Program-made: the position numbers and the translations under genes
Source: Raja brachyura
Taxonomy: Eukaryota
Assembly (NCBI GenBank): GCA_963514005.1
Contig: OY740826.1
Span: 2,666,001-2,730,000, forward strand
Length of the DNA stretch: 64,000 bases
Direction of reading: 5' to 3'
Shown: one piece after another, positions 44,250 through 57,874 of the stretch
Layout of the letters: the number at the start of each line of letters is the position of its first letter
Position numbering within the stretch: position 1 is the first letter of the stretch
Notes under the pieces: model-generated
What the model saw: the letters and a program-made list of their open reading frames with translations, nothing else
The model's database searches: none
Told to the model about the DNA's origin: nothing

Positions 44250-47200
44250 CAGTCCCGCCATCCCGGGAATTAACGTTGTGAACCTACGCTGCACTGCCTC
44301 AATAGCAAAAAAGTCCTTCCTCAAATTTGGAGATCAAAACTGCACACAATACTCCAGGTGTGGTCTCACAAGGGCCCTGTACATCTGCAGAAGGGCCTCT
44401 TTGTCCTATACTCAACTCCTCTTGTTATGAAGGCCAACATGCAATTGGCTTTATTCGCTGCTTGCTGTACCTGCATGCTTACTTTCAGTTTTCTGATGAA
44501 CAAGAGCCCCCAGATCTCTTTGTACTACCCCTTTTCCCAACTTGACATCCTGCAGGTAATAATCTGCCTTCCTGTTTTTGCCACCAAAGGGGATAACCTT
44601 ACATTTATCCACATTAAACTGCAGCTGCCATGCATCCTCCCACACACCCAACCTGTCGAAGTCACTCTGCATCCCCATAGCATCCTCCTCACAGTTCACA
44701 CTGCCACCCAGCTTTGTGTCTTCTGCAAATTTGCTGATGTTGCTTTGAATCCCTTCATCTAAATCATTGACATATATTGTAAATAGCTGCGGTCCCAGCA
44801 CCGACCCTTGCGGTCCCCCACTAGTCACTGTTTGCCATTTTGAAATGGTCCCCTTAATCCCTACTCTGCCAAATAATTCTCTATCCATATCAGTGCCCTA
44901 TCCCCAATACCATGTGCTCTAATTTTGCCTATTAATCTCCCATATGGGAGATTAGTAGGCAAATCAAATCTATCTATACTATTACTGCTGTCAGAGGTTC
45001 TGGGGAGAAGACAGGACAATGGGGTTAGGAGAGATAGATCGGCCATGATTGAATGGCAGAGCAGACTTGATGGGCCGAGTGGCTTAATTCTGCTCCTATC
45101 ACTTATGACCTTATACAGTACGACTTGCCTGGGTTGCGTGCAAACACTGAATTCTGGTACACATGGCAATTATACAACCACACCAATAGATGGGCCGAAA
45201 AAAGGGCTGGCATGGACATGGTGGGCCAATGAACCCGTTGCGGTCTTGGATGGAGCTGTTCCCATAGCAAGCTGCGATGCATCATAATAAAATCTATCTT
45301 CTATCTATCTACACTATCAGTAAAAGTCTCATCTTGACTACTTCCGGTCTGTGTTTTCTTTTAAATCTGCGCAAAAACGGTACCCTATATCACTAGGATG
45401 TTTTTGCCACCTTACTCACCGTTCTCCTCTGCTCCAAGCGCACCAAGTTTTGTTCCGATCGATGGTAGATTACAAAAGTTATTAAGGTTTAAAAAATTGT
45501 GAGATCAGCAGGGTTCTTCGTGCCTGTCAGTCACCATGAAGGTAACGCCCCTTCTGGCACCCGCTGTTAATCACCGGGCGGGGCGAGGAGAATAAAACCC
45601 TGGAGGCGGGGCTGAGTCCACAAGCCTTGCTGATTGAGTCCGCGAGCTGTCCGGAGGAGAACTACCAGCGAAGCGGCCAGCGCCCACTGTGAGTCCCCAT
45701 CGCACCCAAAACCCCTTCCCCTCTGGCCCCCCACACCCGTAATACCGCACGCTCCACCATTGCTCTTCCACATCTTTTTTCCGAGCTCTCTCCACTCCCT
45801 GCCCACACACCCCTCCCCTTCACACCCCACCGGCTCCCCACCCACAAACACACCCCTCCCTGCCACCAACCCCTCCCTTCCACACACCTCTCACAATCCT
45901 CGCCCTGCCCACGCACCCCGAGCTCTCTCCCCCCCTCCCCTGCGTTTTTACTACAGCTGCGGGAGGCTCTGGATGGCCTGACCCGGCCAAGTCCGACCCA
46001 GCCCAGCCAAGCCAGTGCGGAGTTGGAGATGGCGCCGATGTCGCCAAATGGAAAGCGGAGACTCCCGGTGGAGGAGAACAACCAGGGAAGCGATCAGCGA
46101 AGCGATCAGCGAAGCGGCCAACGCCCGCTGTGAGTCCCCATCACATTTCCATCCCCTTCCCCTCTGGTCCCCATCGATGGCTCCAGCCCCCCTCCCCCGT
46201 AATACCGCACTCCCCCCATGGCACTTCCCCTGTCTTTTCTCCGAGCTCTCTCCCACCCTGCCCCCACACCCCGCCCACACCAAACCCCCCTCAACACACA
46301 CATCCCTCCTCCCCCCCTCACAAACACCTCCAGCCCACATGCACACTTCCTCTACCACCCCATACCCCCGCCCCCAAACTACAGACTGATTGACTGAGAC
46401 CCAATGAGTCTCACTTAGTCTAGTACTTTCTGAAAGTCCAGGTACACTACATCCACTGGCTCTCCCTTGTCCCTTTTCCCAGTTACAGCCTCAGAAAATT
46501 CCAGAAGATTAGTCAAACATGATTTCCCCTTCACAAATCAATGTGACTCGCACTGACCCTGTTACTGCTTTCCATAAATGCCACTATTTCATCTTTTAGA
46601 ATTGACTCCAGTACCTTCCCCACCACCGATGTCAGGCTAACTGGTCTATAATTCCCTGTTTTCTCTCTCGCCTTTCTTAAAAAGTGGGAGAACATTAGCT
46701 ACCCTCCAATCTACAGGAACTGATCCTGAATCAATAGAACATTGGAAGATGATCACTAATGCACCCACGATTTCTAGAGCCACTTCCTTAAGTACCCTGG
46801 GATGCAGGTCATCAGGCCCCGGGGATTTATCAGCCTTCAGTCCCATCAGTCTACCCAACACCATTTCCTGCCTAATGTGAATTTCCTTCAGTTCCTCCAT
46901 CACCCTAGATCCTCTGGCCCCTAGTACATCAGGGAAATTGTTTGTGACTTCCTTAGTGAAGACGGATCGGATGCTTTCAAGAAAGAGTTATATAGAGCTC
47001 TTAAGATAGTGGAGACTAGGGATATGGTGAGAAGGCAGGAATGGGGTACTGAATGTGGATGATCAGCCATGATCAAATTGAATGGTGGTGCTGGCTCGAA
47101 GGGCCAAATTGTCTACTCTGCTCCTATTGTCTATTGTTTATTTTCAAAGTACCTGTTTAACTCGTCTGCCATTTCCTTCTTCCCCATAATAAATTCACCT

Positions 47201-47750
47201 GTTGTAGTCTTCAAGATTCCAACTTTGGTCTTAACTAATTTATTCCTCTTCACATACCTAAAGAAGCTTTTACTATCCTCCTTTATATTCTTGGCTAGCT
47301 TACCTTCGTACCTCATCTTTTCTGCACGCATTACCTTTTTAGTTATCTTCCGTTGCTCTTTAAAAGTTACCCAATCCTCTGGCTTCTCGCTCATCTTTAC
47401 TGCGTTATACTTCTCTTTTATTTTTATGCTCCCCCTGACTTCCCTTGTCAGCCATGGTCGCCCTTTACTCCCTTTGGAATCTTTCTTTCTCTTTGGAATG
47501 AACCTTCTGTATTATTCCCAAAATACCTGACATTGTTGTTCCAGTCAACCCTGCCAGTGTATCTTTCCAGTCAACTTTGCCCAGCTCCTCCCTCATGGCT
47601 CCATAGTCCCCTTTGTTCAACTGTAATACTGACATTTCTGATTTTCCCTTCTCCGCCTCAAATTGTAGATTAAAACTTATTATGGTCCCTACCTCCTAAT
47701 GGCTTCTTTACCTCGTGTTCCCTTATGAAATCCGGTTCATTACACAACAC
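44250..47750 (-). mobile_element. Fragmented CR1 ORF2, interrupted by a Helitron and short repeats
   Basis: SGGPQGSVLGP...KFAEDTKL (44451-44888), KSPGPDDLHPRVLKE (46646-46903), KEDSKSFFRYVK (47131-47394). Confidence 0.8.
45293..46423 (+). mobile_element. Non-autonomous Helitron
   Basis: A|TCTATC.. 5' end, subterminal hairpin GAGACCCAATGAGTCTC, CTAG|T 3' end, no TSD; internal imperfect duplication. Confidence 0.75.
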
Positions 47751-48336
47751 TAAGGGTGTTGTGTAATGTGAATGTTGCCAGCACTCGAGAATTAGACAGG
47801 TACACGATGAGGTCAGGTATGCAAGGGTATGGGCCAAATGCAGGCAGGTAGGACTGGGGTAGGTGCGACATGTTGGTTGGTGTGGGCAAGAAGAGCCTGT
47901 TTCCACATGGTATGTGTAGGAGCCATTCATGTTTAGGCCAGCTACTGCTGGCATATTATATTAGTTTGTCTAGATATTTCTAGCGGTATTATTTTGGACA
48001 CTTGGTGGCGGTCATTTGATGAATGCAGGGGTGTAACACATGGGCTTCGTGGACAGGGAGTGATTCAGACCTGCTTCAGGAGGTGGAGGGTACACAGTTC
48101 ACACAGATCAGGAGAACAGGGAGATACAACTTGTATGAGCATAAAGGGAACCTGGTACGTTCATCTCTTTGTTTGTACAACTACATCAATAAAGAATGAC
48201 TGGAAGATCTGTTCTTTTTTGGTCTGTGTAAAATCACTCCTCCTTACATGTGTAGTAATGGCAATGGAAAGTTGGCCATTGTAAAAGTTAGAAATGGCCA
48301 TTACAGTTTGACTCTCTGGCTCTCTGACTTCCCTCG
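46967..48336 (+). repeat. 1370-bp direct duplication, copy 1
   Basis: Apparently identical to 56505-57874 (offset 9538); the ORF track is identical in both copies. Confidence 0.95.
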
Positions 48337-48532
48337 ACTTCCGGTGGCGCCATGTTCTAGGAGAGAACAGTGCCAGACCAGCTCTTAAAAAATCTGGAAA
48401 AAAAACGGGGTTAGAGGAGGCTGCTAACACTACTTACCGTAGGAGATCGATTTTAAACGGCTCCGGGTGCGATTGTAAGCTGCGTGACGTCATCAGGCGC
48501 GCGACTTTAGCGACTCCGGTAAGAAATTTAAA

Positions 48533-56452: not shown

Positions 56453-56485
<33 letters not shown>

Positions 56486-56504
56486 TCTCGGGCTAAGGCT
56501 CCAC

Positions 56505-57874
56505 TCGGATGCTTTCAAGAAAGAGTTATATAGAGCTCTTAAGATAGTGGAGACTAGGGATATGGTGAGAAGGCAGGAATGGGGTACTGAATGTGGATGA
56601 TCAGCCATGATCAAATTGAATGGTGGTGCTGGCTCGAAGGGCCAAATTGTCTACTCTGCTCCTATTGTCTATTGTTTATTTTCAAAGTACCTGTTTAACT
56701 CGTCTGCCATTTCCTTCTTCCCCATAATAAATTCACCTGTTGTAGTCTTCAAGATTCCAACTTTGGTCTTAACTAATTTATTCCTCTTCACATACCTAAA
56801 GAAGCTTTTACTATCCTCCTTTATATTCTTGGCTAGCTTACCTTCGTACCTCATCTTTTCTGCACGCATTACCTTTTTAGTTATCTTCCGTTGCTCTTTA
56901 AAAGTTACCCAATCCTCTGGCTTCTCGCTCATCTTTACTGCGTTATACTTCTCTTTTATTTTTATGCTCCCCCTGACTTCCCTTGTCAGCCATGGTCGCC
57001 CTTTACTCCCTTTGGAATCTTTCTTTCTCTTTGGAATGAACCTTCTGTATTATTCCCAAAATACCTGACATTGTTGTTCCAGTCAACCCTGCCAGTGTAT
57101 CTTTCCAGTCAACTTTGCCCAGCTCCTCCCTCATGGCTCCATAGTCCCCTTTGTTCAACTGTAATACTGACATTTCTGATTTTCCCTTCTCCGCCTCAAA
57201 TTGTAGATTAAAACTTATTATGGTCCCTACCTCCTAATGGCTTCTTTACCTCGTGTTCCCTTATGAAATCCGGTTCATTACACAACACTAAGGGTGTTGT
57301 GTAATGTGAATGTTGCCAGCACTCGAGAATTAGACAGGTACACGATGAGGTCAGGTATGCAAGGGTATGGGCCAAATGCAGGCAGGTAGGACTGGGGTAG
57401 GTGCGACATGTTGGTTGGTGTGGGCAAGAAGAGCCTGTTTCCACATGGTATGTGTAGGAGCCATTCATGTTTAGGCCAGCTACTGCTGGCATATTATATT
57501 AGTTTGTCTAGATATTTCTAGCGGTATTATTTTGGACACTTGGTGGCGGTCATTTGATGAATGCAGGGGTGTAACACATGGGCTTCGTGGACAGGGAGTG
57601 ATTCAGACCTGCTTCAGGAGGTGGAGGGTACACAGTTCACACAGATCAGGAGAACAGGGAGATACAACTTGTATGAGCATAAAGGGAACCTGGTACGTTC
57701 ATCTCTTTGTTTGTACAACTACATCAATAAAGAATGACTGGAAGATCTGTTCTTTTTTGGTCTGTGTAAAATCACTCCTCCTTACATGTGTAGTAATGGC
57801 AATGGAAAGTTGGCCATTGTAAAAGTTAGAAATGGCCATTACAGTTTGACTCTCTGGCTCTCTGACTTCCCTCG
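56505..57874 (+). repeat. 1370-bp direct duplication, copy 2
   Basis: As copy 1; ends about 16 bp from the Siglec exon donor. Confidence 0.95.

What the first reader, a model, noticed from the sequence alone, without database searches (positions are those of the whole stretch)
46967..57874. Intact L1 plus ~2 kb of extra DNA flanked by a 1370-bp target duplication
Seen: the insert 48337-56504 starts exactly at the L1 5' end, runs ~1.95 kb past the L1 AATAAA and lacks a terminal poly(A). It is bracketed by two apparently identical 1370-bp copies. Copy 1 is continuous with native CR1 on its left and copy 2 with the Siglec exon on its right, so the empty allele would join 48336 to 57875. Known: L1 TSDs are usually under ~20 bp (the other full-length L1 here has 18 bp) and 3' transductions normally end in poly(A). 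Inference: a very recent read-through L1 insertion with a giant TSD.
Basis: partly seen in the sequence, partly recalled or inferred. Interest (0 to 1): 0.75.

Follow-up and report, generated by a model that had tools for sequence, protein, structure and literature searches.

The report
Tailless L1 insertion with kilobase duplication
An intact LINE-1 retrotransposon plus 2 kb of extra DNA sits between two identical 1,370-base copies of an intron stretch in a Siglec-like immune gene of a likely skate, likely a natural inherited case of the tailless, kilobase-duplicating insertions described from cultured human cells.

Summary
The structure is in the sequence. 46967-48336 and 56505-57874 are 1370/1370 identical and bracket 8,168 bp: an intact L1 plus about 1.95 kb with no poly(A). 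Both outer ends are native. An old CR1 frame runs across the left end, and contigs from two organisms bridge the right end.

The insert begins in register with the 5' end of the window's other, TSD-bounded L1, which points to an RNA template. It repeats sequence from 284 bp upstream (27/28 match, including a 7/8 match to the target), a likely microhomology-templated join.

Best reading (0.68): a read-through L1 transcript was reverse transcribed and resolved aberrantly. Tailless L1 inserts with large duplications are known from NER-deficient human cells (PMC5223499), but none there was full-length. I found no germline or fish example in nine paper searches.

The two new junctions rest on the assembly alone, and the donor locus could not be searched. 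This is a single locus and a new variant of a known kind.

The parts
46967..48336 (+). Copy 1 of the duplicated target (1370 bp); left end native
   Evidence: 0 mismatches to copy 2; old CR1 minus-strand frame continues across its left end
46969..47142 (+). Short 5'-truncated CR1-like piece inserted in the old CR1, older than the event; its 5' end coincides within 2 bp with the left breakpoint
   Evidence: its 3' join is bridged by contigs X2 rec 9 and X3 rec 19 at the copy-2 coordinates; the CR1 label is recalled, from no call
48337..48532 (+). L1 5' UTR; first base in register with the TSD-defined 5' end of the other L1
   Evidence: alignment of 26745-26905 with 48315-48510
48533..49669 (+). 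L1 ORF1, 378 aa, open
   Evidence: nearest named relatives are skate proteins, 39-53% identical
50350..54138 (+). L1 ORF2, 1262 aa, open: endonuclease, RT, CCHC
54139..54552 (+). L1 3' UTR, AATAAA at 54532, short A run and AT tail; the join to the flank looks like an endonuclease site (bottom strand TTTTC/A)
54553..56484 (+). Extra DNA, likely the donor L1's 3' flank: old repeat pieces, five further AATAAA (55438, 55715, 55729, 55733, 55737), a GC-rich stretch at about 56020-56450, then (CA)n
   Evidence: three pieces identical over their whole length in run X1 (recs 2, 3, 4)
56201..56228 (+). Upstream copy of the junction sequence; its last 8 bases match the first 8 of the target at 7/8
56485..56504 (+). 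Last 20 nt of the insert, an exact repeat of 56201-56220 (likely templated)
56505..57874 (+). Copy 2 of the duplicated target; right end native
   Evidence: join 57874|57875 bridged by X5 rec 30 (169/36 bases) and X2 rec 14 (91/37 bases)
57892..58185 (-). Third Ig exon of the Siglec/MAG-like host gene; its GT donor is 17 nt from copy 2
   Evidence: weak C2-set match, E 0.081
61691..61984 (-). Second Ig (C2-set) exon of the host gene
62534..62894 (-). V-set exon of the host gene; best solved relatives are MAG, sialoadhesin, Siglec-8 and CD33. Its splice acceptor was not located; 62894 is the start of the stretch searched
43879..43975 (-). Transmembrane exon of the host gene (AG..GT bounded); the intron above it is now 13,916 bp and would be 4,378 bp without the event
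26747..34321 (+). Comparator: older L1 with an 18-bp TSD, A-rich target and A-rich tail; 70.8% identical to the new L1 over 3.4 kb, so not the donor

Best explanation
An intact L1 and 1.95 kb of extra DNA lie between two identical 1370-bp copies of Siglec intron DNA, likely because a read-through L1 transcript was reverse transcribed into this site and joined by repair instead of by the normal tail-primed route. SHOWN: the exact duplication, two native outer ends, an insert starting at the L1 5' end, no tail, no endonuclease site at the 3' junction, and a 27/28-bp templated repeat there. INFERRED step 1: a donor L1 elsewhere, with a short tail, was transcribed from its own start through its AATAAA into about 2 kb or more of flank. 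INFERRED step 2: the 3' junction formed by microhomology. Either a target DNA end at 46967 primed on the RNA at 56221-56228, copied 20 nt and re-primed at the (CA)n, or a tailed first junction was resected and rejoined by polymerase-theta-type end joining; the sequence cannot separate these. INFERRED step 3: cDNA ran to the L1 5' end and was joined to a DNA end 1370 bp downstream of the first (a distant nick or the sister chromatid), and fill-in copied the interval twice. PREDICTED: recombination between the two copies would remove the insert cleanly.
For: The insert's first base aligns with the first base of the other L1, whose end is fixed by its TSD; a DNA-level copy has no evident reason to start there (inference). 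The L1|extra-DNA join reads TTTTC/A on the bottom strand, like the old L1's TTTTCT/A, so the extra DNA looks like a donor's 3' flank, whereas the target start reads ATCCGA/TC. No short TSD surrounds the L1 alone: the longest shared word is 6 bp and it is not at the junction. A 20-mer recurring within the previous 400 bp occurs at 58 of 56,692 positions tested (ten tandem or low-complexity zones left out), in three places, one being this junction; a 7/8 match between random 8-mers has frequency 0.00056 (the two tests share 2 bases). The right end is bridged in 2 of 4 runs, from two organisms. The L1 3' UTR piece 54402-54506 is held identically at high contig depth in X5 (rec 26), which fits a young family. 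Precedent: in Tables 1, 3 and 4 of PMC5223499, 13 of 63 listed inserts lack a tail and all 13 have duplications of 275-3685 bp (my count).
Against: The two new junctions (48336|48337 and 56504|56505) rest on the assembly alone, and no donor locus could be searched. The transcript would have to pass six AATAAA signals and ends about 760 bp after the last. All inserts recovered in PMC5223499 were 5'-truncated, and PMC2912911 reports that HeLa full-length inserts had 10-17 bp TSDs. PMC4805530 found 10 of 10 examined large-TSD candidates in a single-cell dataset to be chimeras. Four 7/8 matches to the target 8-mer lie in the insert, so microhomology is easy to find. The left breakpoint falls within 2 bp of an older CR1 5' junction, which this model does not explain.
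Confidence: 0.68

Rival explanations
1. Assembly artefact: a chimeric read, or a mis-join between paralogous Siglec units or haplotypes, wrote the 1370 bp twice.
For: The copies are 100% identical. The region is repeat-rich, and the Siglec exon carries several variant contigs per run (table 3). Large apparent TSDs were chimeras in one single-cell dataset (PMC4805530).
Against: It needs two false joins, one exactly at the L1 5' end and one carrying a 27/28-bp templated repeat; joining contigs end to end would not be expected to give either (inference). The window holds no N. Both outer ends are native.
Confidence: 0.12
2. DNA-level templated insertion: a broken end or stalled fork at 46967 switched by microhomology to the donor locus, copied 8.2 kb of DNA and returned 1370 bp downstream, with no RNA step.
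For: No tail, no endonuclease site, a templated repeat and microhomology at the 3' junction. Repair-mediated capture of chromosomal DNA is known in vertebrates (PMC2671141, abstract only).
Against: The copied segment would have to end within about 1 base of the L1 5' end by chance. The intra-chromosomal duplications in that abstract reach 619 bp, against 8,168 bp here.
Confidence: 0.1
3. Two steps: a full-length L1 first inserted normally at 48336|48337; later its 3' part was repaired from another L1 copy, synthesis ran into that copy's flank and returned by microhomology to the L1-free homologue 1370 bp upstream.
For: It explains the exact 5' start and the repair-like 3' junction separately, and near-identical L1 copies exist to recombine with (rec 26).
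Against: It needs two rare events. No A-rich endonuclease site lies within 30 bp left of 48337, where a normal TSD would begin.
Confidence: 0.07
4. A circle made of target DNA, L1 and flank was released during retrotransposition and re-entered by homologous recombination in the 1370-bp segment.
For: LINE-derived circles that may carry target DNA are proposed for a fungal L1-clade element (PMC3510499, abstract and discussion), and the end product would be identical.
Against: That paper reports no such circles for human or mouse L1; the extra step has no support here.
Confidence: 0.03

Closest known systems
Tailless, large-TSD L1 inserts in NER-deficient human cells (PMC5223499; results section 17 and discussion read, supplements not seen)
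   Same: Kilobase direct duplication (stated median 1495 bp), no poly(A), atypical cleavage site.
   Different: Those are engineered, 5'-truncated inserts in cell lines. This one is full-length, carries about 2 kb of flank and lies in a natural genome of a likely skate; NER status here is unknown.
L1-associated 1-10 kb tandem duplications in tumours and L1-induced clones (bioRxiv 10.1101/2024.12.14.628481; PMC7058536; passages read)
   Same: An L1 insert between tandem copies, called 'large TSDs' and ascribed to break-induced replication or sister-chromatid invasion; loss of the insert's 3' end by resection is described.
   Different: Somatic events, called by poly(A) and endonuclease motifs that are absent here.
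Partnered L1 3' transduction (PMC12350158; passages read)
   Same: L1 followed by downstream donor DNA.
   Different: Canonical insertions there have a poly(A) tract (100%) and TSDs of median 21 bp.
Non-classical, endonuclease-independent L1 insertion (PMC1920257; passages read)
   Same: No tail, non-consensus site; microhomology at the ends is discussed.
   Different: Defined by a 3'-truncated L1 and no TSD, and associated with target deletions. Here the L1 3' end is whole and the target is duplicated.
HERV-K sites with 111- and 250-bp TSDs (PMC5488345; abstract read)
   Same: Inherited insertions with unusually long target duplications.
   Different: An integrase-based element, with duplications five- to twelvefold shorter.

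Membership tests
L1-clade non-LTR retrotransposon | ORF1 plus ORF2 with APE endonuclease, RT and CCHC, in order | tested here: met
   one ORF1 relative is named LINE-1 type transposase domain-containing protein
Canonical target-primed L1 3' transduction | L1 followed by non-L1 flank DNA | tested here: met
Canonical target-primed L1 3' transduction | Terminal poly(A) after a poly(A) signal | tested here: not met
   ends in (CA)n plus 20 nt, about 760 bp after the last AATAAA
Canonical target-primed L1 3' transduction | Endonuclease-type site at the start of the duplication | tested here: not met
   bottom strand ATCCGA/TC against TTTTCT/AC for the other L1
Canonical target-primed L1 3' transduction | Short TSD (about 5-30 bp) | tested here: not met
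   1370 bp; no short TSD around the L1 alone
Canonical target-primed L1 3' transduction | Donor locus with the same L1 upstream of the transduced DNA | not testable with these tools
   no genome is held for this window
Tailless large-TSD L1 insert (type of PMC5223499) | Duplication over 100 bp, no tail, atypical site | tested here: met
Tailless large-TSD L1 insert (type of PMC5223499) | Passage through RNA shown directly (no spliced marker is available here) | tested here: inconclusive
   only indirect: start at the L1 5' end
Non-classical L1 insertion (PMC1920257) | 3'-truncated L1 and no TSD of any length | tested here: not met
   L1 3' end whole, 1370-bp duplication
LTR retroelement (the copies read as LTRs) | Terminal repeats belonging to the element, TG..CA ends (recalled), own short TSD | tested here: not met
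   the repeats are host intron DNA continuous with both flanks, and they start TC and end CG
Siglec family (host gene) | N-terminal V-set domain closest to Siglecs, C2-set domains, transmembrane segment | tested here: met
   sialic-acid binding not tested

The most novel reading that the evidence does not exclude
In this lineage, full-length active L1s regularly enter the germ line by a tailless, repair-joined route that duplicates kilobases of target. Short-TSD filters miss these insertions. They erase themselves by recombination between the long copies, as proviruses leave solo LTRs, and release a circle holding an intact L1. In immune-gene clusters they supply fresh identical repeats for copy-number change.
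Probability: 0.15. Interest if true: 0.75.

Novelty: new variant of a known kind. Interest (0 to 1): 0.45.

Why it matters
[quoted passage not shown] PMC2912911 notes that such target changes were considered HeLa peculiarities and collected only 5-30 bp TSDs. A read-verified, inherited, full-length example in a cartilaginous fish would show that the route operates in a normal germ line, can move an intact L1 with 2 kb of cargo, and can duplicate exon-sized host DNA. It would also give a natural substrate for measuring clean L1 loss by recombination between long duplications, which PMC5223499 proposes. As one unverified locus in an intron, with no shown effect on the host gene, its weight is moderate.

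Tried and rejected
Whole-genome search for the donor: no genome is held.

Sequencing runs (query 55300-58200): 21 listed, best share 0.51; no RNA holder listed.

Laying 4 of the 21 runs on 54100-58700 (the left copy and the L1 5' end were not in the stretch): 0 of 32 listed pieces bridge 56504|56505 or the L1|flank join. 314,161 pieces were not shown and 56446-56494 was skipped as a repeat, so this says nothing either way. At 57614 and 57770 all counted depth in all four runs shows another base than the window, so these runs likely do not hold the window's haplotype. X1 rec 6 (416 bp) fits only 57735-57876 and is unresolved. X1 rec 1 and X3 rec 17 both start at 54553, a weak hint of a graph branch at the L1 end.

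Junction 22-mer in metagenome contigs: 0 matches. ORF1 relatives there: none confirmed of 533 pattern hits. Exact ORF1 and ORF2 proteins: not in the collection. Rfam on 46000-58500: 0 matches at E 0.1. Pfam on the 160-codon open frame in the GC-rich stretch: 0. Earlier scan notes: nothing in 4 look-ups.

Readings rejected: the repeats as LTRs (they are host DNA); the other L1 as donor (70.8% identity); the extra DNA as the native neighbour of copy 1 (no TSD). Added minus-strand AATAAA as evidence of a truncated Siglec is weak: the insert adds 15 and the extra copy 3, but the native intron already has 5.
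Full report
OBSERVATION. The two copies, 46967-48336 and 56505-57874, are identical at 1370 of 1370 bases and cannot be extended on either side; the window has no N. Between them lie 8,168 bp. These hold an L1 with open ORF1 (378 aa) and ORF2 (1262 aa; endonuclease, RT, CCHC), an AATAAA at 54532 and about 1.95 kb more, ending in (CA)n plus 20 nt without an A tail. The nearest named ORF1 relatives come from Leucoraja, Rhinoraja and Amblyraja at 39-53% identity, so the animal is likely a skate. 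Zero differences in 1370 bp bound the copies' divergence at 0.22%; that is young, but it is not a date.

SETTING. The site is an intron of a minus-strand Siglec/MAG-like gene. The V-set exon's best solved relatives are MAG, sialoadhesin, Siglec-8 and CD33. Two further Ig exons and a transmembrane exon have AG and GT splice sites; the V exon's acceptor was not located. The L1 is antisense to the gene. The intron is 13,916 bp now and would be 4,378 bp without the event.

WHICH ENDS ARE NATIVE. Left: an old minus-strand CR1-like frame (label recalled) reads on across the left end once a short plus-strand piece at 46969-47142 is set aside. Right: the join 57874|57875 is bridged by X5 rec 30 (169 and 36 bases; organism A) and X2 rec 14 (91 and 37 bases; organism B), that is 2 of 4 runs laid. 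The new junctions are 48336|48337 and 56504|56505.

THE 5' JUNCTION. The window's other L1 has an 18-bp TSD (26747-26764, 34304-34321). Its first base aligns with 48337, and the two 5' UTRs align beyond it. The insert thus begins at the L1 5' end to within about a base. This is the main argument for an RNA template, and it is indirect. That L1 is only 70.8% identical over 3.4 kb, so it is not the donor.

THE L1-TO-EXTRA-DNA JOIN. The two L1 3' ends align up to 54549. The old one then has an A-rich tail; the new one has a few AT bases and then the extra DNA. The join reads TTTTC/A on the bottom strand, like the old L1's target TTTTCT/A. I infer that the extra DNA is the donor L1's own 3' flank and that a short tail allowed read-through. 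Three pieces of it are identical over their whole length in run X1 (54801-54956, 55288-55420, 56225-56366), so it exists in organism A, though contigs cannot say at which locus. Against a simple transduction, five more AATAAA lie in it, the last about 760 bp before the end.

The target start reads ATCCGA/TC on the bottom strand, not an endonuclease site. Bases 56485-56512, which span the junction, match 56201-56228 at 27 of 28. The insert's last 20 nt repeat a stretch 284 bp upstream, and that stretch continues with 8 bases matching the first 8 of the target at 7 of 8. A 20-mer recurring within 400 bp occurs at 58 of 56,692 tested positions (ten tandem or low-complexity zones left out), in three places, one being this junction. 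A 7/8 match has frequency 0.00056 for random pairs, though four such sites exist in the insert. This looks like microhomology priming with a short templated patch. That pattern is recalled as typical of polymerase-theta end joining and of RT template jumps. The donor may instead carry the repeat natively, leaving a single microhomology join. Either way it is hard to get from an assembler (inference). Unexplained: the left breakpoint lies within 2 bp of the 5' end of the short CR1 piece, which is older, since its 3' join is bridged in X2 and X3.

MECHANISM. Best reading (0.68): a donor L1 was transcribed from its start through its poly(A) signal. The cDNA's 3' junction was made by microhomology, by internal priming at a pre-existing end or by repair after loss of a tailed end. 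The 5' end was joined 1370 bp downstream, and fill-in duplicated the interval. All these steps are inferred; the junction features are shown. Rivals: assembly artefact 0.12, DNA-level template switching 0.10, normal insertion followed by L1-L1 repair 0.07, circle re-entry 0.03.

WHAT COULD NOT BE SHOWN. No genome is held, so the donor was not found. The four runs laid likely do not hold the window's haplotype: at 57614 and 57770 all counted depth shows another base. They are short contigs, the tool skipped the (CA)n beside the 3' junction, and the 5' junction lay outside the stretch laid. The two new junctions therefore rest on the assembly alone.

COMPARISON. PMC5223499 (section 17 with tables and the discussion read; supplements not seen) reports a median TSD of 1495 bp in NER-deficient cells. 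By my count 13 of 63 listed inserts in its Tables 1, 3 and 4 lack a tail, and all 13 have duplications of 275-3685 bp; none was full-length. bioRxiv 10.1101/2024.12.14.628481 (passages; supplements closed)-10 kb tandem duplications large TSDs, ascribes them to break-induced replication and describes loss of 3' ends by resection. PMC7058536 (passages) gives a sister-chromatid model for a 22.6-Mb case. PMC12350158 (passages) gives canonical human insertions a median TSD of 21 bp and classes 15.7% as non-canonical, two thirds of those tailless. PMC1920257 (passages) defines non-classical insertions by 3' truncation and no TSD, which is not met here. PMC4805530 (passages) says TSDs over 50 bp were appreciable only in HeLa and that 10 of 10 examined large-TSD candidates were chimeras; this is both the reason for interest and a warning. 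PMC13320814 (passages) surveys structural variants in over 600 vertebrates including cartilaginous fishes; the passages shown mention no kilobase TSD or transduction. PMC2912911 (passages), PMC2671141 and PMC5488345 (abstracts) and PMC3510499 (abstract and discussion) bear on rivals. Nine searches listed no inherited full-length L1 with a transduction and a kilobase duplication, and none in fish. The library lacks most subscription papers, and unseen supplements of long-read surveys may hold such cases.

VERDICT. It works like the tailless large-duplication L1 inserts of repair-deficient cells. It fails the tests for canonical transduction and for non-classical insertion. It is a new variant of a known kind: full-length, with cargo, in a natural non-mammalian genome. 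One locus, not read-verified, no shown effect on the gene. Interest 0.45.

Noticed in passing
window 26747-34321: The older L1 sits inside another retroelement's RT region (frame at 25689-26096) and itself holds an inverted L1 3' fragment at about 32067-33496 (32519-33468 matches the new L1's ORF2 end at 75.9%).
   Followed up: partly
window 9692-16110: A cluster of about 370-bp and 670-bp AT-rich units in direct and inverted order (for example 11741-12777 against 15432-14397 at 93%), which looks like stacked non-autonomous DNA-transposon copies.
   Followed up: no
window 56020-56450: GC-rich stretch (63% GC, CpG o/e 0.66 in 56000-56499) at the end of the extra DNA, with summed contig depth in the thousands, so likely a repeat family or a shared promoter; no Pfam or Rfam match.
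   Followed up: partly
window 57467-58240: The Siglec exon and adjoining intron show several variant contigs per run, and one 416-bp contig fits only 57735-57876, suggesting a multi-copy or highly polymorphic Siglec family.
   Followed up: partly
window 63034-63603: 33-bp minisatellite, 17.3 copies at 98% match, just upstream of the V-set exon; a diverged relative lies at 2562-2848.
   Followed up: no
window 39750-39880: Likely cytoplasmic exon of the Siglec-like gene with two tyrosine motifs (VYTNL, VEYAEL), about 4 kb beyond the transmembrane exon.
   Followed up: partly
window 4413-4943 and 8044-8277: Open frames recalled as resembling DIRS-type gag-like and tyrosine-recombinase pieces; not tested.
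   Followed up: no
window 48326-48342: A 7-base word occurs twice, 10 bases apart, across the 5' junction (once in the target end, once spanning the L1 start); may reflect transient pairing, may be chance.
   Followed up: no
window 45666-45859 and 46107-46309: A diverged (72%) GC-rich direct duplication in the same intron, left of copy 1.
   Followed up: no
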